From: the human T2T-CHM13v2.0 reference genome, Homo sapiens
Assembly (NCBI GenBank): GCA_009914755.4
Contig: CP068257.2
Span: 1,856,001-1,920,000 of the forward strand
DNA: 64,000 bases
Direction: 5' to 3'
A program made the translations under genes and the position numbers. How positions within the stretch are numbered: the stretch's first letter is position 1; each line of letters begins with the position of its first letter. The notes under the pieces are model-generated. The model saw nothing but the letters and a program-made list of their open reading frames with translations, had not been told where the DNA came from and ran no database searches. Of the stretch, positions 1 to 44,954 are shown piece by piece.

Positions 1-24
1 TACCCAAACTATACATTATATACT

Positions 25-396: not shown

Positions 397-647
397 GTAC
401 ATAAAATATGAAATTACATCAAATATATATTATATTAGGTACATAAAATATGAAAGTACATCAAATATAGATTATATACTGTACATAAAATATCAAAGTA
501 CCCCAAATATATATTATATAGTGTACATGAAATATCAAAGTTCACAACTATATATTATATACTGTACATAAAATATCAAAGTCCCCAAGGTATATATTCT
601 ATACTGTACAAAAAATATCAAAGTACCCAAAGCATGTATTATATACT
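397..647 (+). repeat. 6-monomer HOR variant (A-B-C-D'-E-F, 251 bp). Monomer F is joined directly to the next A at 648, skipping G-H-I. D' is a 41-bp variant (cacaactat, 1-bp deletion).
   Basis: Boundaries read at 397, 439, 481, 523, 564, 606 and 648. The junction ...aaagcatgtattatatact|gtacataaaatatgaaattacatc lies at 647/648. Confidence 0.8.
439..480 (+). repeat. Example single monomer (type B, 42 bp): gtacataaaatatgaaagtacatcaaatatagattatatact.
   Basis: Read directly. It contains the two GTAC palindromes found in almost every monomer (positions 1-4 and ~19-22). Confidence 0.85.
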
Positions 648-5400: not shown

Positions 5401-8400
5401 TATACTGTACATAAAATATGAAATTACATCAAATATATATTATATTAGGTACATAAAATATGAAAGTACATCAAATATAGATTATATACTGTACATTAAA
5501 TACCAAAGTACCCCAAATATATATTTTATACTGTACATGAAATATCAAAGTTCACAAACCATATATTATATACTGTACATAAAATATCAAAGTACCCAAG
5601 GTATATATTCTATACTGTACAAAAAATATCAAAGTACCCAATGCATGTATTATATACTGTACATAAAATATGAAAGTATATCAAATATATATTTTATTCT
5701 GTACATAAAATACCAAAGTACACCAGATATATATTCTATAGTGTACATAAAATAACAAAGTACACAAACTATAAATTATATACTGTACATAAAATATGAA
5801 ATTACATCAAATATATATTAGGTACATAAAATATGAAAGTACATCAAATATAGATTATACACTGTACATAAAATATCAATGTACCCCAAATATATATTTT
5901 ATACTCTACATGAAATATCAAAGTTCACAAACTATATATTATATACTGTACATAAAATATCAAAGTACCCAAGGTATATATTCTATACTGTACAAAAAAT
6001 ATCAAAGTACCAAAAGCATGTATTATATACTGTACATAAAATATGAAAGTACATCAAATATATATTTTATTCTGTACATAAATATGAAAGTACACCAGAT
6101 ATATATTCTATAGTGTACATAAAATATCAAAGTACCCAAACTATACATTATATACTGTACATAAAATATGAAATTACATCAAATATGTATTATATTAGGT
6201 ACATAAAATATGAAAGTACATCAAATATAGATTATATACTGTACATTAAATATCAAAGTACGCCAAATATATATTATATACTGTACATGAAATATCAAAA
6301 TTCACAAACTATATATTATATACTGTACATAAAATATCAAAGTACCTAAGGTATATATTCTATACTGTACAAAAAATATCAAAGTACCCAAAGCATGTAT
6401 TATATACTGTATATAAAATATGAAAGTACATCAAATATATATTTTATTCTGTACAGAAAATATCAAAGTACACCAGATATATATTCTATAGTGTACATAA
6501 AATAACAAAGTACACAAACTATAAATTATATACTGTACATAAAATATGAAATTACATCAAATATATATTAGGTACATAAAATATGAAAGTACATCAAATA
6601 TAGATTATATACTGTACATAAAATATCAATGTACCCCAAATATATATTTTATATTCCACATGAAATATCAAAGTTCACAAACCATATATTATATACTGTA
6701 CATAAAATATCAAAGTACCCAAGGTATACATTCTATACTGCACAAAAAATATCAAAACCCAAAACATGTATTATATACTGTATATAAAATATGAAAGTAC
6801 ATCAAATATATATTTTATTCTGTACATAAAATATCAAAGTACACCAGATATATATTCTATAGTGTACATAAAATAACAAAGTACACAAACTATAAATTAT
6901 ATACTGTACATAAAATATGAAATTACATCAAATATATATTAGGTACATAAAATATGAAAGTTCATCAAATATAGATTATATACTGTACATATAATATCAA
7001 TGTACCCCAAATATATATTTTGTACTCTACATGAAATATCAAAGTTCACAAACCATATATTATATACTGTACATAAAATATCAAAGTACCCAAGGTATAT
7101 ATTCTATACTGTACAAAAAATATCAAAGTACCCAAAGCATGTATTATATACTGTACATAAAATATGAAAGTACATCAAATATATATTTTATTCTGTACAT
7201 AAAATATCAATGTACACCAGATATATATTCTATAGTGTACATAAAATATCAAAGTACCCAAACTATACATTATATACTGTACATAAAATATGAAATTACA
7301 TCAAATAAAGATTATATTAGGTACATAAAATATGAAAGTACATCAAATATAGATTATATACAGTACATTAAATACCAAAGTACCCCAAATATATATTTTA
7401 TACTGTACATGAAATATCGAAGTTCACAAACTATATATTATATACTGTACATAAAATATCAAAGTTCCCAAGGTATATATTCTATACTGTAGAAAAAATA
7501 TCAAAGTACCCAAAGCATGTATTATATACTGTATATAAAATATGAAATTACATCAAATATATATTTTATTCTGTACATAAAATATCAAAGTATACCAGAT
7601 ATATATTCTATAGTGTACATAAAATATCAAAGTACCCAAACTATACATTATATACTGTACATAAAATATGAAATTACATCAAATATATATTAGGTACATA
7701 AAATATGAAAGTACATCAAATATAGATTATATACTGTACATGAAATACCAAAGTAACCCAAATATATATTATATACTGTACATGAAATATCAAAGTTCAC
7801 AAACTATATATTATATACTGTACATAAAATATCAAAGTACCTAAGGTAAATATTCTATACTGTACAAAAAATATCAAAGTACCCAAAGCATGTATTATAT
7901 ACGGTACATAAAATATGAAAGTACATCAAATATATATTTTATTCTGTACATAAAATATCAAAGTACACCAGATATATATTCTATAGTGTACATAAAATAA
8001 CAAAGTACACAAACTATAAATTATATACTGTACATAAAATATGAAATTACATCAAATATATATTAGGTACATAAAATATGAAAGTACATCAAATATAGAT
8101 TATATACTGTACATAAATTATCAATGTACCCCAATTATATATTTTATACTCCACATGAAATATCAAAGTTCACAAACCATACATTATATACTGTACATAA
8201 AATATCAAAGTACCCAAGGTATACATTCTATACTGCACAAAAAATATCAAAGTACCCAAAACATGTATTATATACTGTATATAAAATATGAAAGTACATC
8301 AAATATATATTTTATTCTGTAGATAAAATATCAAAGTACACCAGATATATATTCTATAGTGTACATAAAATATCAAAGTACCCAAACTATACATTATATA

Positions 8401-11400
8401 CTGTACATAAAATATGAAACTACATCAAATATATATTAGGTACATAAAATATGAAAGTACATCAAATATAGATTATATACTGTACATATAATATCAATGT
8501 TCCGCAAATATATATTTTGTACTCTACATGAAATATCAAAGTTCACAAACCATATATTATATACTGTACATAAAATATCAAAGTACCCAAGGTATATATT
8601 CTATACTGTACAAAAAATATCAAAGTACCCAAAGCATGTATTATATACTGTACATAAAATATGAAAGTACATCAAATATATATTTTATTCTGTACATAAA
8701 ATATCAAAGTACACCAGATATATATTCTATAGTGTACATAAAATATCAAAGTACCCAAACTATACATTATATACTGTACATAAAATATGAAATTACATCA
8801 AATATTTATTATATTAGGTACATAAAATATGAAAGTACATCAAATATAGATTATATACTGTACATAAAATATCAAAGTACCCCAAATATATATTATATAC
8901 TCTACATGAAATATCAAAGTTCACAAACTATATATTATATACTGTACATAAAATATCAAAGTACCCAAGGTATATATTCTATACTGTACAAAAAATATCA
9001 AAGTACCCAAAGCATGTATTATATACTATATATAAAATATGAAAGTACATCAAATATATATTTTATTCTGTACATAAAATATCAAAGTACACCAGATATA
9101 TATTCTATAGTGTACATAAAATATCAAAGTACCAAAACTATAAATTATATACTTACATAAAATATGAAATTACATCAAATATATGTTAGGTACATAAAAT
9201 ATGAAAGTACATCAAATATAGATTATATACTGTACATAAAATATCAAAGTACCCCAAATATATATTATATACTGTACATGAAATATCAAAGTTCACAAAC
9301 TATATATTATATACTGTACATAAAATATCAAAGTACCTAAGGTATATATTCTATACTGTACAAAAAATATCAAAGTACCCAAAGCATGTATTATATTCTG
9401 TATATAAAATATGAAAGTACATCAAATATATATTTTATTCTGTACAGAAAATATCAAAGTACACCAGATATATATTCTATAGTGTACATAAAATAACAAA
9501 GTACACAAACTATAAATTATATACTGTACATAAAATATGAAATTACATCAAATATATATTAGGTACATAAAATATGAAAGTACATCAAATATAGATTCTA
9601 TACTGTACATATAATATCAATGTACCCCAAATATATATTTTATACTCTACATGAAATATCAAAGTTCACAAACCATATATTATATACTGTACATAAAATG
9701 TCAAAGTACCCAAGGTATATATTCTATACTGTACAAATAATATCAAAGTACCAAAAGCATGTATTATATACTGTACATAAAATATGAAAGTACATCAAAT
9801 ATATATTTTATTCTGTACATAAAATATCAAAGTACACCAGATATATAATCTATAGTGTACATAAAATATCAAAGTTCCCAAACTATACATTATATAATGT
9901 ACATAAAATATGAAATTACATCAAATATATATTAGGTACATAAAATATGAAAGTACATCAAATATAGATTATATACTGTACATAAAATATCAAAGTACCC
10001 CAAATATATTTTATATACTGTACATGAAATATCAAATTTCACAAACTATATATTATATACTGTACATAAAATATCAAAGTACCCAAGGTATATATTCTAT
10101 ACTGTACAAAAAATATCAAAGTACCCAAAGCATGTATTATATACTGTACATAAAATATGAAAGTACATCAAATATGTATTTTATTCTGTACATAGAATAT
10201 CAAAGTACACCAGATATATATTCTATAGTGTACATAATATAACAAAGTACAAAAACTATACATTATATACTGTACATAAAATATGAAATTACATCAAATA
10301 TATATTAGGTACATAAAATATGAAAGTACATCAAATATAGATTATATACTGTACATAAAATATCAAAGTACCCCAAATATATATTATATAATGTACATGA
10401 AATATCAAAGTTCACAAACCATATATTATATACTGTACATAAAATATCAAAGTACCCAAGGTATATATTCTATACTGTACAAAAAATATCAAAGTACCCA
10501 AAGCATGTATTATATACTGTACATAAAATATGAAATTACATCATATATATATTTTATTCTGTACATAAAATATCAAAGTACACCAGATATATATTCTATA
10601 GTGTACATAAAATATCAAAGTACCCAATCTATACATTATATACTGTACATAAAATATGAAATTACATCAAATATATATTAGGTACATAAAATATGAATGT
10701 ACATCAAATATAGATTATAAACTGTACATAAAATATCAAAGTACCCTAAATATATATTATATACTCTACAAGAAATATCAAAGTTCACACACTATATATT
10801 ATATACTGTACATAAAATATCAAAGTACCCAAGGTATATATTCTATACTGTACAAAAAATATCAAAGAACCCAAACCATGTATTATATACTGTACATAAA
10901 ATATGAAAGTACATCAAATATATATTTTATTCTGTACATAAAATATCAAAGTACACCAGATATATATTCTATAGTGTACATAAAATAACAATGTACGCAA
11001 ACTATACATTATATACTGTACATAAAATATGAAATTACATCAAATATATATTAGGAACATAAAATATGAAAGTACATCAAATATAGATTATATACTGTAC
11101 ATAAAATATCAATGTACCCCAAATATATATTTTATACTCTACATGAAATACCAAAGTTCACAAACCATATATTATATACTGTACATAAAATATCAAAGTA
11201 CCCAAGGTATATATTCTATACTGTACAAAAAATATCAAAGTACCCAAAGCATGTATTATATACTGTACATAAAATATGAAAGTACATCAAATATATATTT
11301 TATTCTGTACATAAAATATCAAAGTACACCAGATATATATTCTATAGTGTACATAAAATATCAAAGTACCCAAACTATACATTATATACTGTACATAAAA

Positions 11401-12699
11401 TATGAAATTACATCAAATATATATTATATTAGGTACATAAAATATGAAAGTACATCAAATATAGATTATATACTGTACATAAAATATCAAAGTACCCCAA
11501 ATATATATTATATACTCTACATGAAATATCAAAGTTCACAAAGTATATATTATATACTGTACATAAAATATCAAAGTACCCAAGGTATATATTCTGTAAT
11601 GTACAAAAAATATCAAAGTACCCAAAGCGTGTATTATATACTGTATATAAAATATGAAATTACATCAAATATATATTTTATTCTGTACATAAAATATCAA
11701 AGTACACCGGATATATATTCTATAGTGTACATAAAATATCAAAGTACCCAAACTATACATTATATACTGTACATAAAATAAGAAATTACATCAAATATAT
11801 ATTATATTAGGTACATAAAATATGAAAGTACATCAAATATAGATTATATACTGTACATTAAATACCAAAGAACCCCAAATATATATTATATACTCTACAT
11901 GAAATATCAAAATTCACAAACTATATATTATATACTGTACATAAAATATCAAAGTACCCAAGGTATATATTTTATACTGTACAAAAAATATCAAAGTACC
12001 CGAAGCATGTATTATATACTGTACATAAAATATGAAAGTACATCAAATATATATTTTATTCCGTAAATAAAATATCAAAGCACACCAGATATATATTCTA
12101 TAGTGTACATAAAATATCAAAGTACACAAACTATACATTATATACTGTACATAAAATATGAAATTACATCAAATATATATTATATAAGGTACATAAAATA
12201 TGAAAGTACAGCAAATATAGATTATATACTGTACATTAAATACCAAAGAACCCCAAATATATATTATATACTCTGCATGAAATATCAAAGTTCACAAACT
12301 ATATATTATATACTGTACATAAAATATCAAAGTACCCAAGGTATATATTCTATACTGTACAAAAAATATCAAAGTACCCAAAGCATGTATTATATACTGT
12401 ATATAAAATATGAAAGTACATCAAATATATATTTTATTCTGTACATAAAATATCAAAGTACACCAGATATATATTCTATAGTGTACATAAAATAACAAAG
12501 TACAAAATCTATAAATTATATACTGTACATAAAATATGAAATTACATCAAATATATATTAGGTACATAAAATATGAAAGTACATCAAATATAGATTATAT
12601 ACTGTACATAAAATATCAATGTACCCCAAATATATATTTTATACTCGACATGAAATACCAAAGTTCACAAACCATATAATATATACTGTACATAAAATA

Positions 12700-15600
12700 T
12701 CAAAGTACCCAAGGTATATATTCTATACTGTACAAAAAATATCAAAGTACCCAAAGCATGTATTATATACTGTATATAAAATATGAAAGTACATCAAATA
12801 TATATTTTATTCTGTACATAAAATATCAAAGTACACCAGATATATATTCTATAGTGTACATAAAATATCAAAGTACCCAAACTATACATTATATATTGTA
12901 CATAAAATATGAAATTACATCAAATATGTATTATATTAGGTACATAAAATATGAAGGTACATCAAATATAGATTATATACTGTACATAAAATATCAAAGT
13001 ACCCCAAATATATATTATATACTGTACATGAAATATCAAAGTTCACAACTATATATTATATACTATACATAAAATATCAAAGTACCCAAGGTATATATTC
13101 TATACTGTACAAAAAATATCAAAGTACCCAAAGCATGTATTATATACTGTACATAAAATATGAAATTACATCAAATATATATTATATTAGGTACATAAAA
13201 TATGAAAGTACATCAAATATAGATTATATACTGTACATAAAATATCAAAGTACCCCAAATATATATTATATACTGTACATGAAATATCAAAGTTCACATC
13301 TATATATTACATACTGTACATAAAATATCAAAGTACCCAATTTATATATTCTATACTGTACAAAAAATATCAAAGTACCCAAAGCACGTATTATATACTG
13401 TACATAAAATATGAAAGTACATCAAATATATATTTTATTCTGTACATAAAATATCAAAGTACAGAAGGTATATATTCTATAGTGTATATAAAATATCAAA
13501 GTACCCAAACTATACATTATATACTGTACATAAAATATGAAATTACATCAAATATGTATTATATTAGGTACATAAAATATGAAAGTACATGAAATATAGA
13601 TTATATACTGTACATAAAATATCAAAGTACCCCAAATTTATATTATATACTATACATGAAATATCAAAGTTCACAAACTATATATTATATACTGTACATA
13701 AAATATCAAAGTACCCAAGGTATATATTCTATAGTGTACAAAAAATATCAAAGTACCCAAAGCATGTATTATATACTGTACATAAAATATAAAATTACAT
13801 CAAATATATATTTTATTCTGTACATAAAATATCAAAGTACACCAGATATATATACTATAGTGTACATAAAATATCAAAGTACCCAAACTATACATTATAC
13901 ACTGTACATAAAATATGAAATTACATCAAATATATATTAGGTACATAAAATATGAAAGTACATCAAATATAGATTATATACTGTACATATAATATCAATG
14001 TACCCCAAATATATATTTTATACTCTACATGAAATATCAAAGTTCACAAACCATATATTATATACTGTACATAAAATATCAAAGTACCCAAGGTATATAT
14101 TCTATACTGTACAAAACATATCAAAGTACCCAAAGCATGTATTATATACTGTACATAAAATATGAAACTACATCAAATATATATTTTATTCTGTACATAA
14201 AATATCAAAGTACACCAGATATATATTCTATAGTGTACATAAAATATCAAAGTACCCAAACTATACATTATATACTGTACATAAAATATGAAATTACATC
14301 AAATATATTTTATATTAGGTACATAAAATATGAAAGTACATCAAATATAGATTATATACTGTACATTAAATACCAAAGTACCCCAAATATATATTTTATA
14401 CTGTACATGAAATATCAAAGTTCACACACTATATATTATATACTGTACATAAAATATCAAAGTACCCAAGGTATATATTCTATACTGTACAAAAAATATC
14501 AAAGTACCCAAAGCATGTATTATATACTGTACATAAAATATGAAAGTACATCAAATATATATTTTATTCTGTACATAAATATCAGAGTACACCAGATATA
14601 TATTCTATAGTGTACACAAAATAACAAAGTACACAAACTATAAATTATATACTGTACATAAAATATGAAATTACATCAAATATATATTAGGTACATAAAA
14701 TATGAAAGTACATCAAATATAGATTATATACTGTACATATAATATCAATGTACCCCAAAAATATATTTTATACTCTACATGAAATATCAAAGTTCACAAA
14801 CCGTACATTATATACTGTACATAAAATATCAAAGTACCCAAGGTATATATTCTATACTGTACAAAAAATATCAAAGTACCCAAAGCATGTATTATATACT
14901 GTACCTAAAATATGAAAGTACATCAAATATATATTTTATTCTGTACATAAAATATCAAAGTACACCAGATATATATTCTATAGTGTACATAAAGTAACAA
15001 AGTACACAAACTATACATTATATACTGTACATAAAATATGAAATTACATCAAATATATATTAGGTACATAAAATATGAAAGTACATCAAATATAGATTAT
15101 ATACTGTACATAAAATATCAATGTACCCCAAATATATATTTTATACTCTACATGAAATATGAAAGTTCACAAACCATATATTATATACTGTACATAAAAT
15201 ATCAAAGTACCCTATGTATATATTCTATACTATACAAAAAATATCAAAGTACCCAAAGCATGTATTATATACTGTACATAAAATATGAAAGTACATCAAA
15301 TATATATCTTATTCTGTACATAAAACATCAAAGTACCCAAACTATACATTATATACTGTACATAAAATATGAAATTACATCAAATATATATTAGGTACAT
15401 AAAATATGAAAGTACATCAAATATAGATTATATACTGTACATAAAATATCAAAGTACCCCAAATATATATTATATACTCTACATGAAATATCAAAGTTCA
15501 CAAACTATACATTATATACTGTACATATAATATGAAAGTACACAAGGTATATATTCTATACTGTACAAAAAATATCAAAGTACCAAAAGCATGTATTATA

Positions 15601-18600
15601 TACTGTATATAAAATATGAAAGTACATTAAATATATATTTTATTCTGTACATAAAATATCAAAGTACACCAGATATATATTCTATAGTGTACATAAAATA
15701 ACAAAGTACACAAACTATAAATTATATACTGTACATAAAATATGAAATTACATCAAATATATATTAGATACATAAAATATGAAAGTACATCAAATATAGA
15801 TTATATACTGTACATATAATATCAATGTACCCCAAATATATATTTTATACTCTACATGAAATATCAAAGTTCACAAACCATACATTATATACTGTACATA
15901 AAATATCAAAGTACCCAAGGTATATATTCTATAGTGTACAAAAAATATCAAAGTACCCAAAGCATGTATTATATACTGTACATAAAATATGAAAGTACAT
16001 CAAATATATATTTTATTCTGTACATAAAATATCAAAGTACACCAGATATATATTCTATAGTGTACATAAAATATCAAAGTACCCAAACTATACATTATAT
16101 ACTGTACATAAAATATGAAATTACATCAAATATATATTATATTAGGTACATAAAATATGAAAGTACATCAAATATAGATTATATACTGTACATAAAATAT
16201 CAAAGTACCCCAAATATATATTATATACTGTACATGAAATATCAAAGTTCACAACTATATATTATATACTGTACATAAAATATCAAAGTCCCCAAGGTAT
16301 ATATTCTATACTGTACAAAAAATATCAAAGTACCCAAAGCATGTATTATATACTGTACATAAAATATGAAATTACATCAAATATATATTATATTGGGTAC
16401 ATAAAATATGAAAGTACATCAAATATAGATTATATACTGTACATAAAATATCAAAGAACCCCAAATATATATTATATACTGTATATGAAATATCAAAGTT
16501 CACAACTATATATTACATACTGTACATAAAATATCAAAGTACCCAATTTATATATTCTATACTGTACAAAAAATATCAAAGTACCCAAAGCATGTATTAT
16601 ATACTGTACATAAAATATGAAAGTACATCAAATATATATTTTATTCTGTACATAAAATATCAAAGTACAGAAGATATATATTCTATAGTGTATATAAAAT
16701 ATCAAAGTACCCAAACTATACATTATATACTGTACATAAAATATGAAATTACATCAAATATGTATTATATTAGGTACATAAAATATGAAAGTACATGAAA
16801 TATAGATTATATACTGTACATAAAATATCAAAGTACCCCAAATTTATATTATATACTATACATGAAATATCAAAGTTCACAAACTATATATTATATACTG
16901 TACATAAAATATCAAAGTACCCAAGGTATATATTCTATAGTGTACAAAAAATATCAAAGTACCCAAAGCATGTATTATATACTGTACATAAAATATAAAA
17001 TTACATCAAATATATATTTTATTCTGTACATAAAATATCAAAGTACACCAGATATATATACTATAGTGTACATAAAATATCAAAGTACCCAAACTATACA
17101 TTATACACTGTACATATAATATGAAATTACATCAAATATATATTAGGTACATAAAATATGAAAGTACATCAAATATAGATTATATACTGTACATATAATA
17201 TCAATGTACCCCAAATATATATTTTATACTCTACATGAAATATCAAAGTTCACAAACCATATATTATATAATGTACATAAAATATCAAAGTACCCAAGGT
17301 ATATATTCTATACTGTACAAAACATATCAAAGTACCCAAACCATTTATTATATACTGTACATAAAATATGAAACTACATCAAATATATATTTTATTCTGT
17401 ACATAAAATATCAAAGTACACCAGATATATATTCTATAGTGTACATAAAATATCAAAGTACCCAAACTATACATTATATACTGTACATAAAATATGAAAT
17501 TACATCAAATATATTTTATATTAGGTACATAAAATATGAAAGTACATCAAATATAGATTATATACTGTACATTAAATACCAAAGTACCCCAAATATATAT
17601 TTTATACTGTACATGAAATATCAAAGTTCACACACTATATATTATATACTGTACATAAAATATCAAAGTACCCAAGGTATATATTCTATACTGTACAAAA
17701 AATATCAAAGTACCCAAAGCATGTATTATATACTGTACATAAAATATGAAAGTACATCAAATATATATTTTATTCTGTACATAAATATCAAAGTACACCA
17801 GATATATATTCTATAGTGTACACAAAATAACAAAGTACACAAACTATAAATTATATACTGTACATAAAATATGAAATTACATCAAATATATATTAGGTAC
17901 ATAAAATATGAAAGTACATCAAATATAGATTATATACTGTACATATAATATCAATGTACCCCAAAAATATATTTTATACTCTACATGAAATATCAAAGTT
18001 CACAAACCGTACATTATATACTGTACATAAAATATCAAAGTACCCAAGGTATATATTCTATACTGTACAAAAAATATCAAAGTACCCAAAGCATGTATTA
18101 TATACTGTACCTAAAATATGAAAGTACATCAAATATATATTTTATTCTGTACATAAAATATCAAAGTACACCAGATATATATTCTATAGTGTACATAAAG
18201 TAACAAAGTACACAAACTATACATTATATACTGTACATAAAATATGAAATTACATCAAATATATATTAGGTACATAAAATATGAAAGTACATCAAATATA
18301 GATTATATACTGTACATAAAATATCAATGTACCCCAAATATATATTTTATACTCTACATGAAATATGAAAGTTCACAAACCATATATTATATACTGTACA
18401 TAAAATATCAAAGTACCCTATGTATATATTCTATACTATACAAAAAATATCAAAGTACCCAAAGCATGTATTATATACTGTACATAAAATATGAAAGTAC
18501 ATCAAATATATATCTTATTCTGTACATAAAACATCAAAGTACCCAAACTATACATTATATACTGTACATAAAATATGAAATTACATCAAATATATATTAG

Positions 18601-19800
18601 GTACATAAAATATGAAAGTACATCAAATATAGATTATATACTGTACATAAAATATCAAAGTACCCCAAATATATATTATATACTCTACATGAAATATCAA
18701 AGTTCACAAACTATACATTATATACTGTACATATAATATGAAAGTACACAAGGTATATATTCTATACTGTACAAAAAATATCAAAGTACCAAAAGCATGT
18801 ATTATATACTGTATATAAAATATGAAAGTACATTAAATATATATTTTATTCTGTACATAAAATATCAAAGTACACCAGATATATATTCTATAGTGTACAT
18901 AAAATAACAAAGTACACAAACTATAAATTATATACTGTACATAAAATATGAAATTACATCAAATATATATTAGATACATAAAATATGAAAGTACATCAAA
19001 TATAGATTATATACTGTACATATAATATCAATGTACCCCAAATATATATTTTATACTCTACATGAAATATCAAAGTTCACAAACCATACATTATATACTG
19101 TACATAAAATATCAAAGTACCCAAGGTATATATTCTATAGTGTACAAAAAATATCAAAGTACCCAAAGCATGTATTATATACTGTACATAAAATATGAAA
19201 GTACATCAAATATATATTTTATTCTGTACATAAAATATCAAAGTACACCAGATATATATTCTATAGTGTACATAAAATATCAAAGTACCCAAACTATACA
19301 TTATATACTGTACATAAAATATGAAATTACATCAAATATATATTATATTAGGTACATAAAATATGAAAGTACATCAAATATAGATTATATACTGTACATA
19401 AAATATCAAAGTACCCCAAATATATATTATATACTGTACATGAAATATCAAAGTTCACAACTATATATTATATACTGTACATAAAATATCAAAGTCCCCA
19501 AGGTATATATTCTATACTGTACAAAAAATATCAAAGTACCCAAAGCATGTATTATATACTGTACATAAAATATGAAATTACATCAAATATATATTATATT
19601 GGGTACATAAAATATGAAAGTACATCAAATATAGATTATATACTGTACATAAAATATCAAAGAACCCCAAATATATATTATATACTGTATATGAAATATC
19701 AAAGTTCACAACTATATATTACATACTGTACATAAAATATCAAAGTACCCAATTTATATATTCTATACTGTACAAAAAATATCAAAGTACCCAAAGCATG
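12700..19800 (+). repeat. 3206-bp super-repeat (~8.5 HOR units per copy), about 2.2 tandem copies. The same block family is also represented, more diverged, at ~230-2500 and ~3450-5750.
   Basis: Constant offset of 3206 between 13072/16278/19484 (ends of the '...SSQLYIIY[YC]T' ORFs), 13589/16795, 14029/17235, 14779/17985, 15038/18244, 15856/19062 and 16341/19547. I checked the sequence at 13442 vs 16648 and it matches, with one substitution in the stretch I compared. Divergence resumes after ~19800. Confidence 0.8.
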
Positions 19801-20689
19801 TATTATATACTGTACATAAAATATGAAAGTACATCAAATATATATTTTATTCTGTACATAAAATATCAAAGTACACCAGATATATATTCTATAGTGTACA
19901 TAAAATAACAAAGTACACAAACTATACATTATATACTGTACATAAAATATGAAATTACATCAAATATATATTAGGTACATAAAATATGAAAGTACATCAA
20001 ATATAGATTATATACTGTACATAAAATATCAATGTACCCCAAATATATATTTTATACTCTACATGAAATATCAAAGTTCACAAACCATATATTATATACT
20101 GTCCATAAAATATCAAAGTACCCAAGGTATATATTCTATACTATACAAAAAATATCAAAGTACACAAAGCATGTATTATATACTGTACTTAAAATATGAA
20201 AGTACATCAAATATATATTTTATTCTGTACATAAAATATCAAAGTACACCAGATATATATTCTATAGTGTACATAAAATATCAAAGTACCCAAACTATAC
20301 ATTATATACTATACATAAAATATGAGATTACATCCAATATATATTATATTAGGTACATAAAATATGAAAGTACATCAAATATAGATTATATACTGTACAT
20401 AAAATATCAAAGTACCCCAAATATATATTATATCCTCTACAAGAAATATCAAAGTTCACACACTATATATTATATACTGTACATAAAATATCAAAGTACC
20501 CAAGGTATATATTCCATACTGTACAAAAAATATCAAAGTACCCAAAGCATGTATTATATTCTGTATATAAAATATGAAAGTACATCAAATATATATTTTA
20601 TTCTGTACATGAAATATCAAAGTACACCAGATATATATTCTATAGTGTACATAAAATAAAAAGTACACAAACTATAAATTATATACTGT

Positions 20690-22200
20690 ACATAAAATAT
20701 GAAATTACATCAAATATATATTAGGTACATAAAATATGAAAGTACATCAAATATAGATTATATACTGTACATATAATATCAATGTACCCCAAATATATAT
20801 TTTATTCTCTACATGAAATATCAAAGTTCACAAAGCATATATTATATACTGTACATAAAATATCAAAGTACCCAAGGTATATATTCTATACTGTACAAAA
20901 AATATCAAAGTAACCAAAGCATGTAATATATACTGTACATAAAATATGAAAGTACATGAAATATATATTTTATTCTGTACATAAAATATCAAAGTACACC
21001 AGATATATATTCTATAGTGTACATAAAATATCAAAGTACCCAAACTATACATTATATACTGTACATAAAATATGAGATTACATCAAATATATATTATATT
21101 AGGTACATAAAATATGAAAGTACATCAAATATAGATTATATACTGTACATAAAATATCAAAGTACCCCAAATATATATTATATACTCTACAGGAAATATC
21201 AAAGTTCACACACTATATATTATATACTGTACATAAAATATCAAAGTACCCAAGGTATATATTCTATACTGTACAAAAAATATCAAAGTACCCAAAGCAT
21301 GTATTATATTCTGTATATAAAATATGAAAGTACATCAAATATATATTTTATTCTGTACATAAAATATCAAAGTACACCAGATATATATTCTATAGTGTAC
21401 ATAAAATAACAAAGTACACAAACTATAAATTATATACTGTACATAAAATATGAAATTACATCAAATATATATTAGGTACATAAAATATGAATGTACATCA
21501 AATATAGAATATACACTGTACATATAATATCAATGTACCCCAAATATATATTTTATTCTCTACATGAAATATCAAAGTTCACAAACCATATATTATATAC
21601 TGTACATAAAATATCAAAGTACCCAAGGTATATATTCTATAATGTACAAAAAATATCAAAGTACCAAAAGCATGTATTATATAGTGTACATAAAATATGA
21701 AAGTACATCAAATATATATTTTATTCTGTACATATAATATCAAAGTACACCAGATATATATTCTATAGTGTACATAAAATATCAAAGTACCCAAACTATA
21801 CATTATATACTGTACATAAAATATGAAATTACATCAAATATATATTATATTAGGTACATAAAATATGAAAGTACATCAAATATAGATTATATTCTGTACA
21901 TAAAATATCAATGTATCCCAAATATATATTTTATACTCTACATGAAATATCAAAGTTCACAAACCATATCTTATATACTGTACATAAAATATCAAAGTAC
22001 CCAAGGTATATATTCTATACTGTACAAAAAATATCAAAGTACCCAAAGCATGTATTATATACTGTACATAAAATATGAAAGTACATCAAATATATATTTT
22101 ATTCTGTAGATAAAATATCAAAGTACACCAGATATATATTCTATAGTGTACATAAAATATCAAAGTACCCAAACTATACATTATATACTGTACATAAAAT
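20690..22200 (+). repeat. Segmental copy whose partner is at 24937-26450 (offset 4247). The preceding 19949-20300 pairs with 24452-24800 at offset 4503, implying a ~256-bp (6-monomer) indel between the copies.
   Basis: ORF pairs 20828..21052(-)/25075..25299(-), 21017..21409/25264..25656 and 21768/26015 share the rare variants 'YILSIKYQ', 'YILYLKYES', 'QCIPNIYF' and 'QTISY'. Confidence 0.7.
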
Positions 22201-24936
22201 ATGAAATTACATCAAATATATATTATATTAGGTACATAAAATATGAAAGTACATCAAATATAGATTATATACTGTACATAAAATATCAAATTACCCCAAA
22301 TATATATTATATACTCTACATGAAATATCAAAGTTCACAAACTATATATTATATACTGTACATAAAATATCAAAGTACCCAAGGTATATATTCTATACTG
22401 TACAAAAAATATCAAAGTATCCAAAGCATGTATTATATACTGTATATAAAATATGAAAGTACATTAAATATATATTTTATTCTGTACATAAAATATCAAA
22501 GTACATCAGATATATATTCTATAGTGTACATAAAATAACAAAGTACGCAAACTATAAATTATATACTGTACATAAAATATGAAATTACATCAAATATATA
22601 TTAGGTACATAAAATATGAAAGTACATCAAATATAGAATATACTGTACATGAAATACCAAAGTACCCCAAATATATATTTTATACTCTACATGAAATATC
22701 AAAGTTCACAAACTATATATTATATACTGTATATAAAATATCAAAGTACCCAAGGTATATATTCTATACTGTACAAAAAATATCAAAGTACCCAAAGCAT
22801 GTATTATATACTGTACATAAAATATGAAAGTACATCAAATATATATTTTATTCTGTACAGAAAATATCAAAGTACACCAGATATATATTCTATAGTGTAC
22901 ATAAAATATCAAAGTACCCAAACTATACATTATATACTGTACATAAAATATGAAATTACATCAAATTTATATTAGGTACATAAAATATGAAAGTACATCA
23001 AATATAGATTATATACTGTACATAAAATATCAAAGTACCCCAAATATATATTATATACTCTACATGAAATATCAAAGTTCACAAACTATATATTATATAC
23101 TGTACATAACATATCCAAGTACCCAAGGTATATATTCTATACTGTACAAAAAATATCAACGTACCCAAAGCATGTATTATATACTCTATATAAAATATGA
23201 AAGTACATCACATATATATTTTATTCTGTACATAAAATATCAAAGTACACCAGATATATATTCTATAGTGTACATAAAATAACAAAGTACAAAAACTATA
23301 AATTATATGCTGTACATAAAATATGAAATTACATCAAATATATATTAGGTACATAAAATATGAAAGTACATCAAATATAGATTATATACTGTACATATAA
23401 TATCAATGTACCCCAAATATATATTTTATTCTCTACATGAAATATCAAAGTTCACAAACCATATATTATATACTGTACATAAAATATCAAAGTACCCAAG
23501 GTATATATTCTATACTGTACAAAAAATATCAAAGTACCCAAAGCATGTATTATATACTGTACATAAAATATGAAAGTACATCAAATATATATTTTATTCT
23601 GTACATAAAATATCAAAGTACACCAGATATATATTCTATAGTGTACATAAAATATCAAAGTACCCAAACTATACATTATATACTGTACATAAAATATGAA
23701 ATTACATAAAATATATATTATATTAGGTACATAAAATATGAAAGTACATCAAATATAGATTATATACTGTACATTAAATACCAAAGTACCCCAAATATAT
23801 ATTTTATACTGTACATGAAATATCAAAGTTCACAAACTATATAATATAAACTGTACATGTAATATCAAAGTACCCGAGGTATATATTCTATACTGTACAA
23901 AAAATAACAAAGTACCAAAAGCATGTATTATATACTGTACATAAAATATGAAAGTATATCAAATATAGATTTTCTTCTGTACATAAAATATCAAAGTAAA
24001 ACAGATATATATTCTATAGTGTACATAAAATATCAAAGTACCCAAACTATACATTATATACTGTACATAAAACATGAAATTACATCAAATATATATTATA
24101 TTAGGTACATAAAATATGAAAGTACATCAAATATAGATTATATAGTGTACATAAATTATCAAAGTACCCCAAATATATATTATATACTCTACATGAAATA
24201 TCAAAGTTCACAAACTATATATTATATAGTGTACATAAAATATGAAAGTACCCAAGGTATACATTCTATACTGCAAAAAAAATATCAAAGTACCCAAAGC
24301 AAGTATTATATACTGTATCTAAAATATGAAAGTACAGCAAATATATATTTTATTCTGTACATAAAATATCAATGTACACCAGATATATATTCTATAGTGT
24401 ACATAAAATATCAAAGTACCCAAACTATACATTATATACTGTACATAAAATATGAAATTACATCAAATATATATTAGGTACATAAAATATGAAAGTACAT
24501 CAAATATAGATTATATACTGTACATAAAATATCAATGTACCCCAAATATATATTTTATACTCTACATGAAATATCAAAGTTCACAAACCATATATTATAT
24601 ACTGTCCATAAAATATCAAAGTACCCAAGGTATATATTCTATACTATACAAAAAATATCAAAGTACGCAAAGCATGTATTATATACTGTACTTAAAATAT
24701 GAAAGTACATCAAATATATATTGTATTCTGTACATAAAATATCAAAGTACAAAAGATATATATTCTATAGTGTACATAAAATATCAAAGTACCCAAACTA
24801 TACATTATATACTGTACATAAAATATGAAATTACATCAAATATATATTAGGTACATAAAATATGAATGTACATCAAATATAGATTATATACTGTACATAA
24901 AATATCAAAGTACACAAACTATAAATTATATACTGT

Positions 24937-26450
24937 ACATAAAATATGAAATTACATCAAATATATATTAGGTACATAAAATATGAAAGTACTTCAAATA
25001 TAGATTATATACTGTACATATAATATCAATGTACCCCAAATATATATTTTATACTCTACATGAAATATCAAAGTTCACAAACCATACATTATATACTGTA
25101 CATAAAATATCAAAGTACCCAAGGTATATATTCTATACTGTACAAAAAATATCAAAGTACCCAAAGCATGTAATATATACTGTACATAAAATATGAAAGT
25201 ACATGAAATATATATTTTATTCTGTACATAAAATATCAAAGTACACCAGATATATATTCTATAGTGTACATAAAATATCAAAGTACCCAAACTATACATT
25301 ATATACTGTACATAAAATATGAGATTACATCAAATATATATTATATTAGGTACATAAAATATGAAAGTACATCAAATATAGATTATATACTGTACATAAA
25401 ATATCAAAGTACCCCAAATATATATTATATACTCTACAGGAAATATCAAAGTTCACACACTATATATTATATACTGTACATAAAATATCAAAGTACCCAA
25501 GGTATATATTCTATACTGTACAAAAAATATCAAAGTACCCAAAGCATGTATTATATTCTGTATATAAAATATGAAAGTACATCAAATATATATTTTATTC
25601 TGTACATAAAATATCAAAGTACACCAGATATATATTCTATAGTGTACATAAAATAACAAAGTACACAAACTATAAATTATATACTGTACATAAAATATGA
25701 AATTACATCAAATATATATTAGGTACATAAAATATGAAAGTACATCAAATATAGATTATATACTGTACATATAATATCAATGTACCCCAAATATATATTT
25801 TATTCTCTACATGAAATATCAAAGTTCACAAACCATATATTATATACTGTACATAAAATATCAAAGTACCCAAGGTATATATTCTATAATGTACAAAAAA
25901 TATCAAAGTACCAAAAGCATGTATTATATACTGTACATAAAATATGAAAGTACATCAAATATATGTTTTATTCTGTACATATAATATCAAAGTACACCAG
26001 ATATATATTCTATAGTGTACATAAAATATCAAAGTACCCAAACTATACATTATATACTGTACATAAAATATGAAATTACATCAAATATATATTATATTAG
26101 GTACATAAAATATGAAAGTACATCAAATATAGATTATATTCTGTACATAAAATATCAATGTATCCCAAATATATATTTTATACTCTACATGAAATATCAA
26201 AGTTCACAAACCATATCTTATATACTGTACATAAAATATCAAAGTACCCAAGGTATATATTCTATACTGTACAAAAAATATCAAAGTACCCAAAGCATGT
26301 ATTATATACTGTACATAAAATATGAAAGTACATCAAATATATATTTTATTCTGTACATAAAATATCAAAGTACACCAGATATATATTCTATAGTGTACAT
26401 AAAATATCAAAGTACCCAAACTATACATTATATACTGTACATAAAATATG
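24937..26450 (+). repeat. Partner copy of 20690-22200 (offset 4247).
   Basis: As above. It is preceded at 24850-24960 by an unusual A'-B-I'-A'-B arrangement (a local deletion derivative). Confidence 0.7.
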
Positions 26451-26810
26451 AAATTACATAAAATATATATTATATTAGGTACATAAAATATGAAAGTACA
26501 TCAAATATAGATTATATACTGTACATTAAATACCAAAGTACCCCAAATATATATTTTATACTGTACATGAAATATTCAAGTTCACAAACTATATAATATA
26601 TACTTTACATGTAATATCAAAGTACCCGAGGTATATATTCTATACTGTACAAAAAATAACAAAGTACCAAAAGCATGTATTATATACTGTACAAAAAATA
26701 TGAAAGTACATCAAATATAGATTTTATTCTGTACATAAAATATCAGAGTACAACAGATATATATTCTATAGTGTACATAAAATATCAAAATACCCAAACT
26801 ATACATTATA
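26450..26810 (+). repeat. Copy of 23700-24060 (offset 2752). It carries rare variants: A with 'attacataaaatat', E with 'gtacatgtaatatcaaagtacccgagg', F with 'aaaataacaaagtaccaaaagc', G with 'atagattttattct', H with 'acagatat'.
   Basis: Read directly. ORFs 23923..24477 and 26675..26911 share the 'NIDF', 'IKHEITSN' and 'TDIYS' variants. The same variant cluster recurs near 35900-36200. Confidence 0.65.
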
Positions 26811-27039
26811 TACTGTACATAAAACATGAAATTACATCAAATATATATTATATTAGGTACATAAAATATGAAAGTACATCAAATATAGATTATATACTGT
26901 ACATTAAATAGCAAAGTACCCCAAATATATATTTTATACTGTACATGAAATATCAAAGTTCACAAACTATATATTATATACTGTACATGTAATATCAAAG
27001 TACCCGAGGTATATATTCTATACTGTACAAAAAATAACA

Positions 27040-30000
27040 AAGTACCAAAAGCATGTATTATATACTGTATATAAAATATGAAAGTACATCAAATATATAT
27101 TTTATTCTGTACATAAAATCTCAAAGTACACCAGATATATATTCTATAGTGTACATAAAATAACAAAGTACAAAAACTATAAATTATATACTGTACATAA
27201 AATATGAAATTACATCAACTATATATTAGGTACATAAAATATGAAAGTACATCAAATATAGATTATATACTGTACATAAAATATCAATGTACCCCAAATA
27301 TATATTTTATACTCTGCATGAAATATCAAAGATCACAAACCATATATTATATACTGTATATAAAATATCAAAGTACCCAAGGTATATATTCTATACTATA
27401 CAAAAAATATCAAAGTACCCAAAGCATGTATTATATACTGTACATAAAATATAAAAGTACATCAAATATATATTTTATTCTGTACATAAAATATCAAAGT
27501 ACACCAGATATATATTCTATAGTGTACATAAAATATCAAAGTACCCAAACTATACATTATATACTGTACATAAAATATGAAATTACATCAAATATATTTT
27601 ATATTAGGAACATAAAATATGAAAGTACATCAAATATAGATTATATACTGTACATAAAATATCAAAGTACCCCAAGTATATATTATATACTCTACAGGAA
27701 ATATCAAAGTTCATACACTATATATTATATACTGTACATAAAATATCAAAGTACCCAAGGTATATATTCTATACTGTACAAAAAATATCAAAGTACCCAA
27801 AGCATGTATTATATTCTGTATATAAAATATGAAAGTACATCAAATATATATTTTATTCTGTACATAAAATATCAAAGTATACCAGATATATATTCTATAG
27901 TGTACATAAAATAACAAAGTACACAAACTATAAATTATATACTGTACATAAAATATGAGATTACATCAAATATATATTATATTAGGTACATAAAATATGA
28001 AAGTACATCAAATATAGATTATATACTGTACATAAAATATCAAAGTACCCCAAATATATATTATATACTCTACATGAAATATCAAAGTTCACAAACTATA
28101 TATTATATACTGTACATAAAATATCAAAGTACCCAAGGTATATATTCTATACTGTACAAAAAATATCAAAGTACCCAAAGCATGTATTATATACTGTACA
28201 TAAAATATGAAAGTACATCAAATATATATTTTATTCTGTACATAAAATATCAAAGTACACCAGATATATATTCTATAGTGTAAATAAAATAACAAAGTAC
28301 ACAACTATACATTATATACTGTACAGAAAATATGAAATTACATCAAATATATATTAGGTACATAAAATATGAAAGTACATCAAATATAGATTATATACTG
28401 TACATAAAATATCAAAGTACCCCAAATATATATTATATACTCTACATGAAATATCAAAGTTCACAAACTATATTTTATATACTGTACATAAAATATCAAA
28501 GTACCCAAGGTATATATTCTATACTGTACAAAAAATATCAAAGTACCCAAAGCATGTATTATATACTGTATATAAAATATGAAAGTACATCAAATATATA
28601 TTTTATTCTGTACATAAAATATCAAAGTACACCAGATATATATTCTATAGTGTACATAAAATAACAAAGTACACAAACTATAAATTATATACTGTACATA
28701 AAATATGAAATTACATCAAACATATATTAGGTACATAAAATATGAAAGTACATCAAATATAGATTATATACTGTACATATAATATCAATGTACCCGAAAT
28801 ATATATTTTATACTCTACATGAAATATCAAAGTTCACAAACCATATATTATATACTGTACATAAAATATCAAAGTACCCAAGGTATATATTCTATACTGT
28901 ACAAAAAATATCAAAGTACCCAAAGCATGTATTATATACTGTACATAAAATATGAAATTACATCAAATATATATTTTATTCTGTACATAAAATATCAAAG
29001 TACACCAGATATATATTCTATAGTGTACATAAAATATCAAAGTACCCAAACTATACATTATATACTGTACATAAAATATGAAATTACATCAAATATATAT
29101 TATATACTGTACATTAAATACCAAAGTACCCCAAATATATATTTTATACTGTACATGAAATATCAAAGTTCACAAACTATATATTATATACTGCACATAA
29201 AATATCAAAGTACCCAACGTATATATTCTATACTGTACAAAAAATATCAAAGTACCCAAAGCATGTATTATATACTGTACCTAAAATATGAAAGTACATC
29301 AAATATATATTTTATTCTGTACATAAAATATCAAAGTACACCAGATATATATTCTATAGTGTACATAAAATATCAAAGTACCCAAACTATACATTATATA
29401 CTGTACATAAAATATGAAATTACATCAAATATATATTATATTAGGTACATAAAATATGAAAGTATATCAAATATAGATTATATACTGTACATAAAATATC
29501 AAAGTACCCCAAATATATATTATATACTCTACATGAAATATCAAAGTTCACAAACCATATATTATATACTGTACATAAAATAAAGTACCCAAGGTATATA
29601 TTCTATACTGTAGAAAAGATATCAAAGTACCCAAAGCATGTATTATATACTGTATATAAAATATGAAAGTACATCAAATATATATTTTATTCTGTACATA
29701 AAATCTCAAAGTACACCAGATATATATTCTATAGTGTACATAAAATAACAAAGTACAAAAACTATAAATTATATACTGTACATAAAATATGAAATTACAT
29801 CAACTATATATTAGGTACATAAAATATGAAAGTACATCAAATATAGATTATATACTGTACATAAAATATCAATGTACCCCAAATATATATTTTATACTCT
29901 GCATGAAATATCAAAGATCACCAACCATATATTATATACTGTATATAAAATATCAAAGTACCCAAGGTATATATTCTATACTATACAAAAAATATCAAAG

Positions 30001-44750: not shown

Positions 44751-44954
44751 GATTATACACTGTACATAAAATATCAAAGTACCCCAAATATATATTTTAT
44801 ACTGTACATGAAATATCAAAGTTCACAAACTATATATTATATACTGTACATAAAATAAAGTCCCCAAGGTATATATTCTATACTGTACAAAAATATCAAA
44901 GTACCCAAAGCATGTATTATATACACTACATAAAATATGAAATTACATCAAATA

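What the first reader, a model, noticed from the sequence alone, without database searches (positions are those of the whole stretch)
12700..19800. 3206-bp super-repeat (~8.5 HORs) in ~2.2 near-identical tandem copies
Every landmark in 12.7-16.5 kb recurs 3206 bp downstream, and many recur again after a further 3206 bp. The recurring ORFs are identical or nearly so. In one stretch I compared base by base (13442 vs 16648) there is a single substitution. This indicates a very recent tandem duplication by unequal exchange, many HOR units long. A more diverged member of the same block family lies at 3.45-5.4 kb (offset 9248) and probably at 0.2-2.5 kb (offset ~3253 from the 3.9-kb copy).
Basis: seen in the sequence. 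Interest (0 to 1): 0.6.

Follow-up and report, generated by a model that had tools for sequence, protein, structure and literature searches.

The report
Recent 3.2-kb duplication inside HSat1A satellite
The repeat is real, but it is an ordinary event: a recent tandem duplication of a 3,206-bp stretch (nine higher-order repeat units) inside a human-type satellite 1 (HSat1A) array, of the kind by which such arrays are already known to grow.

Summary
The whole 64-kb window is one uninterrupted array of the 42-bp AT-rich satellite HSat1A (classical satellite I, "SAR"). It has the published 9-monomer, 378-bp higher-order repeat (HOR), plus a 373-bp form.

The offset-3206 repeat is confirmed and is the strongest long-range diagonal in the window. 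It has two layers:
- **Recent duplication.** 13464-16669 recurs as 16670-19875, exactly one period. There are 6 substitutions and no indels (99.81%), with 2,084 bp identical.
- **Older paralogue.** 12187-13463 matches 15393-16669 at 97.6% overall and 98.5% over 12680-13463.

The block is 9 HOR-like units: 7 canonical, one 6-mer ABFGHI and one 8-mer ABCEfGHE. Informative sites switch from "copy 2 = copy 3" to "copy 2 = copy 1" within a 76-bp stretch identical in all three copies (13388-13463). That is the signature of out-of-register homologous exchange between the two older paralogues.

Two corrections. The 3.4-5.3 kb member is 99.5-99.7% identical to copy 1, so it is not more diverged. The first member spans only about 0.18-1.1 kb.

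At least four other multi-HOR duplications lie in the window. Known phenomenon, low interest.

The parts
1..64000 (+). Continuous HSat1A (satellite I / SAR) array: 1536 monomers of 42 bp. The HORs are ABCDEFGHI (378 bp) and ABCDEfGHI (373 bp, where f is a 37-bp form of monomer F).
   Evidence: TRF finds one array at 4-64000 with period 42. GC is a uniform 0.21-0.22 and the skews are uniform. The published A and B1 units match the window.
12187..13463 (+). Older paralogue A1 (part of copy 1). It matches A2 (15393-16669) at 97.6% overall; the convincing part, 12680-13463, matches at 98.5%. The left limit is uncertain, between 12187 and 12709.
   Evidence: There are 31 mismatches in 1277 bp at offset 3206, of which 12 fall in the 784 bp of 12680-13463. 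HOR-pair identities are 0.967, 0.979 and 0.984, and the rare ABFGHI unit is shared in register.
13464..16669 (+). First copy of the recent 3206-bp duplicate. It comprises segment B (13464-15392) plus paralogue A2 (15393-16669).
   Evidence: It shows 6 mismatches and 0 indels against 16670-19875. The stretch 14586-16669 is perfect for 2084 bp.
16670..19875 (+). Second copy of the recent 3206-bp duplicate (B' plus A2').
   Evidence: Same comparison as above. 15393-16669 and 18599-19875 are 1277/1277 identical.
13388..13463 (+). Inferred exchange interval: 76 bp identical in copies 1, 2 and 3 (also at 16594-16669 and 19800-19875). It lies in monomers B to D of the HOR starting at 13337.
   Evidence: At 13387, copy 2 equals copy 3 and differs from copy 1. 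From 13464/13465 and 13487 onward, copy 2 equals copy 1 and differs from copy 3.
19876..19967 (+). Start of the native right flank of the original A2. From here the sequence leaves the block family and returns to baseline identity. It carries an f-type monomer, as member m0 does.
   Evidence: Mismatches begin at 16670/19876 and a 5-bp F/f indel follows at 13555-equivalent. Member m0 stays similar to this flank as far as about 1109.
3432..5306 (+). Dispersed member m1, 9248 bp upstream of its partner in copy 1 (12680-14554). It spans the exchange point and carries copy-1-type alleles.
   Evidence: 10 mismatches in 1875 bp, and 5 in the 1747-bp core. Against copy 2 it shows 25 mismatches.
179..1109 (+). 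Member m0 at the window edge. It is closest to copies 2 and 3 (8 differences in 657 bp, against 13 to copy 1). The family may continue upstream of the window.
13086..13336 (+). ABFGHI: a 251-bp 6-monomer HOR with a B/E hybrid monomer (C and D deleted). It is the structural marker of the block family. The other copies are at 585-835, 3838-4088, 16292-16542 and 19498-19748.
   Evidence: The HOR string is. The 61-bp hybrid marker is found only at these five places.
15212..15542 (+). ABCEfGHE: a 331-bp aberrant 8-monomer HOR that closes the block. Its twin is at 18418-18748.
   Evidence: identity 1.000 between the two.

Best explanation
The window is a human-type HSat1A array. A 3206-bp stretch of nine HOR-like units was recently duplicated in tandem, so that 13464-16669 recurs as 16670-19875.

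The substrate was an older pair of direct paralogues that already lay 3206 bp apart: A1 (about 12680-13463) and A2 (now 15393-16669). Both carry the rare 6-monomer ABFGHI unit. Out-of-register pairing of A2 on one chromatid with A1 on the other, with an exchange in the last 76 bp of their shared sequence, turns L-A1-B-A2-R into L-A1-B-A2-B-A2-R.

The earlier history of the same segment family includes a dispersed 1.9-kb copy or conversion (m1, 3432-5306) and an older relative (m0, 179-1109).

Shown here: the two-layer identity pattern, the exact one-period length, the switch of informative sites, and the grouping of family members.

Inferred, not shown: that the exchange was a crossover (sister or homologue) rather than a replication-based template switch, and the timing. 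At a genome-average clock of about 0.5e-9 per site per year (my own knowledge), 6 differences in 3206 bp gives roughly 1-2 Myr. It would be less if satellites mutate faster, as reported for centromeric DNA.

The duplication has no function of its own. It is a by-product of array turnover.
For: - **Satellite identity.** Period 42 across the whole window. The 9-monomer 378-bp HOR matches the HSat1A description. The published 17-bp A unit matches 597 times exactly and 1481 of 1536 monomers within 2 substitutions. The B1 unit matches 263 times exactly, read with a single C after ACA[T/C], which gives the stated 25 bp; the 26-letter form as printed has no exact match.
- **Human origin.** A 25-mer of the satellite hits human gut and oral metagenome contigs and about 1x-coverage contigs in 32 unrelated bacterial assemblies. 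Eight of those short contigs have 100% 31-mer containment in the window.
- **Duplication.** Offset 3206 is the top 60-mer diagonal. It shows 6 mismatches and 0 indels over 3206 bp, with 2084 bp perfect. The HOR baseline is 94.4 +/- 2.1%.
- **One-period length.** The near-perfect run is 13464-16669, which equals the period. A single duplication predicts this; conversion does not.
- **Exchange signature.** Site patterns are.
- **Older paralogy and family tree.**
- **Generality.** At least four other multi-HOR duplications with different periods lie in the window. 97 of 174 HOR units have a partner at 99% or better.
- **Literature.** Unequal crossing over and local or saltatory expansion are the accepted dynamics of such arrays.
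Against: - Site 13468 does not fit a clean switch: copy 2 equals copy 3 (A) while copy 1 and m1 have G. It needs one later A>G change in copy 1 that m1 then inherited, or a short repair patch.
- The exchange point sits at the very end of the A1/A2 paralogy, in the last 76 of 784-1277 bp. This is mildly unexpected if crossovers fall uniformly.
- All 6 post-duplication differences lie in the first 1122 bp and none in the remaining 2084 bp. This hints at a further conversion or uneven mutation.
- The left part of A1 (12187-12679, 96.2%) is barely above baseline, so the extent of the older paralogy is uncertain.
- No read-level data could be examined, so the correctness of the assembly is assumed.
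- Species and chromosome are not established.
Confidence: 0.85

Rival explanations
1. Same duplication, different mechanism: a replication-based template switch or slippage (break-induced replication), or excision and re-insertion of a 3206-bp circle. This would use the generic 94-100% homology between in-phase HORs rather than a meiotic or mitotic crossover between A1 and A2.
For: The product would look identical. The junction lies at the extreme end of the A1/A2 paralogy, which is not where a random crossover is most likely. Site 13468 gives a small mosaic. [quoted passage not shown]
Against: Nothing in the sequence discriminates between the mechanisms. The period equals the pre-existing A1-A2 spacing and the junction lies in 76 bp of perfect identity, which is what homologous exchange predicts.
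Confidence: 0.2
2. No recent duplication took place. An older array of three 3206-bp copies was partly homogenised by gene conversion, which made B1 equal B2 and A2 equal A3.
For: Identity along the repeat is stepwise: 97.6%, then 99.5%, then 100%. A 1.9-kb conversion-like dispersed copy (m1) exists nearby.
Against: The near-perfect run is exactly one period long and continuous, with no indels. A true third copy would be expected to continue past 19875, but identity there falls to baseline. This model needs two or more coordinated tracts where a single duplication suffices.
Confidence: 0.07
3. Assembly artefact: a false duplication introduced by the assembler in a satellite array.
For: No reads were available here.
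Against: The copies differ at 6 sites and sit in distinct flanks. The whole structure spans 7.7 kb and its longest perfect stretch is 2.1 kb, shorter than typical long reads (my own knowledge of read lengths). Four other blocks in the window behave the same way.
Confidence: 0.05
4. The recurring ORFs mark a duplicated coding unit.
For: ORFs of up to 193-236 aa recur at +3206.
Against: They are periodic low-complexity translations (YILYIKYQST...) of a 42-bp repeat, which is 14 codons. They occur throughout the array on one strand, and the sequence is 78% A+T satellite.
Confidence: 0.01

Closest known systems
Human satellite 1A (HSat1A, 'SAR', classical satellite I) with its 378-bp 9-mer HOR (Prosser 1986; Altemose et al. 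2022, as cited)
   Same: 42-bp monomer made of 17-bp A and 25-bp B units. About 78% A+T. A 9-monomer 378-bp HOR. [quoted passage not shown]
   Different: Nothing essential. The 373-bp f-variant HOR, the ABFGHI and ABCEfGHE variants and this particular 3206-bp block are local details that I did not find described. Chromosome and species could not be determined.
Macro-repeats, layered expansions and saltatory multi-HOR amplifications in alpha-satellite arrays (Altemose 2022; Logsdon 2024)
   Same: Blocks of several HORs duplicated locally, much more similar to each other than the array average, and attributed to unequal exchange or conversion.
   Different: A different satellite family (42-bp HSat1A rather than 171-bp alpha satellite). 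Kilobase scale rather than tens to hundreds of kb. No link to kinetochore position could be tested.
'SuperHOR' or cascading HORs (GRM/GRMhor papers listed)
   Same: A further level of periodicity built from whole HORs.
   Different: There are only two recent copies plus an older fragment. Each duplication in the window has its own period (7, 9, 11/9 or 12 units). There is no regular array-wide third-level period.
Duplication-to-triplication by non-allelic homologous recombination between direct repeats, as in the classical Bar locus and segmental-duplication-mediated copy-number variants (my own knowledge)
   Same: Two direct paralogues a fixed distance apart mediate an out-of-register exchange that adds one period. 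The junction lies in shared identical sequence.
   Different: Here the paralogues are themselves satellite HOR blocks embedded in 94% homologous sequence, so many alternative registers were available.

Membership tests
HSat1A / satellite I (SAR) | 42-bp tandem monomer | tested here: met
   TRF gives period 42 with 1534 copies over 4-64000. Wrap-around alignment gives 1536 monomers, mostly of 41-43 bp.
HSat1A / satellite I (SAR) | Monomer made of the published 17-bp A unit (ACATAAAATAT[G/C]AAAGT) followed by the 25-bp B unit | tested here: met
   The A unit matches 597 times exactly and 1481 of 1536 monomers within 2 substitutions. B1 matches 263 times exactly, read with a single C after ACA[T/C], which gives the stated 25 bp; the 26-letter form as printed has no exact match. 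A followed by B1 matches 161 times exactly. The units come from PMC9032817.
HSat1A / satellite I (SAR) | Predominant 9-monomer, 378-bp higher-order repeat | tested here: met
   Nine monomer classes of about 170 copies each follow a fixed cyclic order. ABCDEFGHI (378 bp) occurs 63 times and ABCDEfGHI (373 bp) 67 times.
HSat1A / satellite I (SAR) | Extreme A+T richness (GC about 23% or lower) | tested here: met
   GC is 0.21-0.22 in every 2-kb window. Cloned HSAT1 is reported at an average GC of 23%.
HSat1A / satellite I (SAR) | Located in human pericentromeres (chromosomes 3, 4, 13 and other acrocentrics) | not testable with these tools
   No human or primate genome is searchable here. Indirect support: the satellite appears in human gut and oral metagenome contigs and as about 1x-coverage contaminant contigs in bacterial assemblies. 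Eight of those short contigs have 100% 31-mer containment in the window.
Recent tandem (segmental) duplication within a satellite array | Copies adjacent, in the same orientation, with identity well above the array's in-phase HOR background | tested here: met
   99.81% over 3206 bp against a background of 94.4 +/- 2.1% (99th percentile 98.7%). No inverted repeats were found.
Recent tandem (segmental) duplication within a satellite array | High-identity run equals one period | tested here: met
   The run 13464-16669 is 3206 bp at offset 3206.
Homology-mediated unequal exchange (NAHR-type) | Pre-existing direct paralogues spaced by the duplication period | tested here: met
   A1 and A2 are 3206 bp apart and 97.6-98.5% identical. 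They share the rare ABFGHI unit, and each has private rare alleles.
Homology-mediated unequal exchange (NAHR-type) | The middle copy switches from downstream-type to upstream-type alleles at a single point inside shared sequence, with no novel junction | tested here: inconclusive
   The switch lies between 13387 and 13464, within 76 identical bp, and there is no foreign junction. One site (13468) breaks the pattern, and the switch coincides with the end of the paralogy.
Regular third-level 'superHOR' | One multi-HOR period repeated regularly along the array | tested here: not met
   Near-identical HOR pairs occur at lags 7, 9, 11, 12, 14, 20, 25 and 34 in different places. Mean identity by lag is flat at 0.94-0.95.

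The most novel reading that the evidence does not exclude
HSat1A arrays may grow mainly by a self-seeding process. A partial multi-HOR paralogue fixes a spacing (here 3206 bp) that is then re-used by later exchanges, so that local third-level periods (7, 9, 11 or 12 HORs) emerge and expand. This window would catch several at the two-to-three-copy stage, and the exchange point is resolved to 76 bp. If such nascent blocks were polymorphic among people, they would give directly datable markers of satellite turnover outside alpha satellite.
Probability: 0.15. Interest if true: 0.3.

Novelty: already known. Interest (0 to 1): 0.13.

Why it matters
It matters little on its own. It is a clean worked example of how a pericentromeric satellite array changes: a datable two-step history with the exchange point narrowed to 76 bp and a small family tree of five related segments. 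In practical terms, blocks like this (2-4.5 kb, 99-100% identical) are the features that can mislead short-read mapping and assembly polishing in HSat1A. They could also serve as haplotype markers if they vary among people.

Tried and rejected
- A whole-window megablast self-comparison timed out because of the number of HSPs. I replaced it with exact 60-mer diagonals and ungapped offset profiles.
- The repeat finder is swamped by the 42-bp periodicity and truncates references to 300 nt, so it cannot show the 3206-bp repeat. It did report no inverted repeats.
- TRF in this tool stops at period 500.
- A global ungapped offset scan does not show 3206, because 5-bp F/f indels destroy register over long distances.
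- The family-specific 28-mer was absent from metagenome contigs, and a generic 25-mer was absent from viral contigs. The family markers are absent from all 152 fetched loci. No independent copy of the block was therefore found, and the assembly could not be cross-checked.
- A 35-kb metagenome contig (BNJS01002444.1) has HSat1A with an HOR of about 382 bp and its own kb-scale diagonals. It looks error-prone or comes from another array, so I did not pursue it.
- I rejected a coding interpretation of the ORFs.
- I rejected the idea that m1 converted copy 1 as the explanation for the A1/A2 divergence. Copy 1 also differs from copy 2 to the left of m1's boundary, and the alpha/beta difference drops sharply at 13464 inside m1's span.
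- The transition/transversion count over the other block pairs was spoiled by register shifts and is not used.


Full report
**What the window is.**

TRF reports a single tandem array from 4 to 64000 with period 42 and about 1534 copies at 80% match. GC content (0.21-0.22), GC skew and AT skew are uniform in every 2-kb window. There is therefore one satellite in one orientation, with no interruptions.

A wrap-around alignment to the 42-bp consensus gives 1536 monomers: 905 of 42 bp, 268 of 43, 260 of 41 and 76 of 37. Clustering gives nine monomer classes of about 170 copies each, in a fixed cyclic order that I label A to I. Class F has a 37-bp variant, f.

The array reads as ABCDEFGHI (378 bp, 63 copies) and ABCDEfGHI (373 bp, 67 copies), plus a few variants.

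This matches the published description of human satellite 1A (HSat1A, formerly 'SAR', classical satellite I). [quoted passage not shown]

The published A unit, ACATAAAATAT[G/C]AAAGT, matches the window 597 times exactly and 1481 of 1536 monomers within two substitutions. The B1 unit matches 263 times exactly when read with a single C after ACA[T/C], which gives the stated 25 bp; the 26-letter form as printed has no exact match.

A 25-mer of the satellite is found in more than 120 metagenome contigs, many labelled human gut or oral. It is also found in short, roughly 1x-coverage contigs of 32 unrelated bacterial genome assemblies, which is the usual signature of human DNA contamination. Eight of those short contigs have all their 31-mers present in the window. 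Species and chromosome cannot be fixed with these tools.

**Checking the observation.**

Among all offsets, 3206 carries the most shared exact 60-mers: 3192, more than the HOR period 378 itself.

At offset 3206, in first-copy coordinates and without gaps:
- 12187-13463: 31 mismatches in 1277 bp (97.6%).
- 13464-16669: 6 mismatches in 3206 bp, at 13468, 13911, 14065, 14135, 14139 and 14585 (99.81%), with no indels.
- 14586-16669: identical for 2084 bp.

Identity collapses left of 12187 and right of 16669 (that is, at 19876).

I aligned all 174 HOR units column by column. Arbitrary pairs average 94.4% (sd 2.1, 99th percentile 98.7%), and only 0.3% of 15,051 pairs reach 99.5%. The nine consecutive HOR pairs of the recent duplicate score 0.995 to 1.000.

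**Anatomy.**

In HOR terms the period is nine units: f-HOR, F-HOR, ABFGHI, F, f, F, f, f, ABCEfGHE. That is seven canonical HORs plus two truncated ones:
- ABFGHI is 251 bp and has a B/E hybrid monomer that deletes C and D.
- ABCEfGHE is 331 bp.

The total is 77 monomers and 3206 bp. '8.5 HORs' is therefore right as a length but not as a structure.

The ABFGHI unit occurs only five times in the window (585, 3838, 13086, 16292, 19498), and its 61-bp hybrid marker only there. A D-monomer variant, GTACAGAAGR, occurs only at 958, 4211, 13459 and 16665. These markers define a small family of related segments:
- m0: 179 to about 1109.
- m1: 3432-5306.

**Two layers, and the exchange point.**

I aligned m1, c1, c2 and c3 and listed the variable sites, then added m0.

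| Region (c1 coordinates) | Pattern |
|---|---|
| 12187-13387 | c2 = c3, both differ from c1 (31 sites) |
| 13388-13463 | c1, c2 and c3 identical (76 bp) |
| 13464/13465, and 13487 onward | c2 = c1; c3 falls to baseline divergence and carries an f-type monomer |

The near-perfect run at offset 3206 (13464-16669) is exactly one period long. That is what a single tandem duplication of one 3206-bp unit produces:

L-A1-B-A2-R becomes L-A1-B-A2-B-A2-R

Here A1 (12187 or 12680 to 13463) and A2 (15393-16669) are older direct paralogues that already lay 3206 bp apart.

The middle copy changes from A2-type to A1/B-type within a stretch identical in all copies, with no foreign junction. That is the expected footprint of out-of-register homologous exchange between A2 and A1.

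The differences between A1 and A2 are split between rare alleles private to c1 (17) and rare alleles private to c2/c3 (14). This is consistent with independent mutation since an older split.

**Loose ends in that model.**

- *Site 13468.* It reads A in m0, c2 and c3, and G in c1 and m1. The pattern needs one A>G change in c1 after the duplication that m1 then inherited, or a short repair patch at the exchange.
- *Position of the exchange.* It sits at the very end of the paralogy.
- *Clustering of differences.* All six post-duplication differences lie in the first 1122 bp of the 3206. Two of them (14135 and 14139) are 4 bp apart and may be one event.
- *Left part of A1.* 12187-12679 is only 96.2% identical to A2, barely above baseline. 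The older paralogy is secure only from about 12680, where it is 98.5% (12 mismatches in 784 bp).

None of these overturns the duplication. They limit confidence in the exact mechanism.

**The other family members.**

m1 (3432-5306) matches c1 (12680-14554) with 10 mismatches in 1875 bp, and 5 in its 1747-bp core. Against c2 it has 25 mismatches. At the sites separating A1 from A2 it carries the c1 allele in all but one case. It is therefore not a 'more diverged member'. It is a near-identical dispersed copy, or conversion tract, of the c1 lineage, 25 HORs away. Its flanks are at baseline.

m0 is related only from about 179 to 1109. Over 12680-13336 it differs from c2/c3 at 8 sites and from c1 at 13, and it shares two rare derived alleles with c2/c3. 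Like c3, it continues into an f-type monomer. The grouping is (m1, c1) and (m0, (c2, c3)).

**Context within the window.**

The 3206-bp block is not unique:
- 27005-34382 is a 2584-bp (7-HOR) unit in 2.86 copies at 99.3-99.6%.
- 37384-40476, 41480-44488 and 44864-47871 form a triple. The first two are 99.83% identical with one 84-bp indel; the third is 98.9% identical to each of them.
- 51251-54250 matches 55758-58757 at 98.8%.
- 20872-22000 matches 25119-26247 at 99.5%.

Each has its own period. Mean identity as a function of HOR lag is flat, so there is no array-wide third-level period. 97 of 174 HOR units have a partner at 99% or better somewhere in the window.

This fits the published statements that HSat1 nested repeats 'evolve and expand hyper-locally', and that satellite arrays change by unequal crossing over, conversion and saltatory amplification.

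**Rivals.**

- *Replication-based template switch or circle re-insertion.* This would leave the same product and cannot be excluded.
- *Homogenisation of an old three-copy array.* This is disfavoured by the exact one-period length of the near-perfect run and by the drop to baseline past 19875.
- *Assembly artefact.* This cannot be tested without reads. It is unlikely given six distinguishing sites, distinct flanks and a 7.7-kb total span.
- *Coding unit.* The ORFs are periodic translations of a 14-codon repeat and are not genes.

**Timing (inference only).**

With a genome-average rate of about 0.5e-9 per site per year (my own knowledge), 6 differences in 3206 bp corresponds to the order of 1-2 Myr. 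It would be proportionally less if the rate is raised, as reported for centromeric DNA: 1.1- to 4.1-fold in the flanks and perhaps ten-fold in HOR arrays. 'Very recent' is safe relative to the array's 5.6% background divergence, not in absolute terms.

**Verdict.**

The repeat is real and well above background. It is best explained as a recent one-period tandem duplication seeded by an older paralogue pair, inside an HSat1A array that shows several such events. It is a known kind of event in a known satellite, so interest is low.

Noticed in passing
window 27005-34382: A second super-repeat: a 2584-bp unit of 7 HORs in about 2.86 tandem copies, 99.3-99.6% identical. It is marked by an ABCDEGHI unit that lacks monomer F (28878, 31462, 34047).
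   Followed up: partly
window 37384-47871: Three related 3.0-kb blocks of 8 HORs each at 37384, 41480 and 44864. The first two are 99.83% identical apart from one 84-bp (2-monomer) indel. The third is 98.9% identical to each of them.
   Followed up: partly
window 51251-58757 and 20872-26247: Further block pairs: 51251-54250 with 55758-58757 (offset 4507, 98.8%), and 20872-22000 with 25119-26247 (offset 4247, 99.5%). Overall, 97 of 174 HOR units have a partner at 99% or better in the window.
   Followed up: partly
whole window: Monomer 6 exists as a 42-bp form (F) and a 37-bp form (f) in about equal numbers. They often alternate, giving 378/373-bp HORs and a secondary period of 751 bp (18 monomers). 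These 5-bp F/f differences are what break ungapped register at several block boundaries.
   Followed up: partly
window >23 kb versus <20 kb: Variants i, j and k of monomer I occur only beyond about 23 kb, and the ABFGHI unit only before 20 kb. This suggests local HOR-haplotype domains within the 64 kb.
   Followed up: no
window 19949-20659 and throughout, + strand: Because 42 bp is 14 codons, one reading frame stays open across many monomers. This gives ORFs of up to 236 aa with a periodic YILYIKYQST-like translation. They are artefacts that a gene finder could call.
   Followed up: yes
loci L121-L152 (genome contigs): HSat1A sequence sits as short contigs, many at about 1x coverage, in 32 species-representative bacterial assemblies. 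Several are RefSeq NZ_ records, for example Thiocystis violacea DSM 208 and Amycolatopsis vastitatis H5. This is probable human DNA contamination. Eight of them are made entirely of 31-mers present in this window.
   Followed up: partly
loci L027+L101+L015 (contig BNJS01002444.1, 6747-41929): A 35-kb stretch of HSat1A-like array in a metagenome contig. Its HOR period is about 381-384 bp and it has its own kb-scale diagonals (3069 and 4600 bp). It is either another array or a long-read assembly with indel errors.
   Followed up: no
window 12187-16669 versus +3206: The 37 differences between copies are 17 transitions and 20 transversions. This low ratio agrees with a recent preprint's remark on HSat1A.
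   Followed up: no
window 1-207 versus 15212-15542: The first partial unit of the window resembles the aberrant ABCEfGHE unit (0.988), but m0 lacks the ABCDE?GHI unit that follows it in c2 and c3. The block family probably continues upstream of the window and differs there by a one-HOR indel.
   Followed up: no
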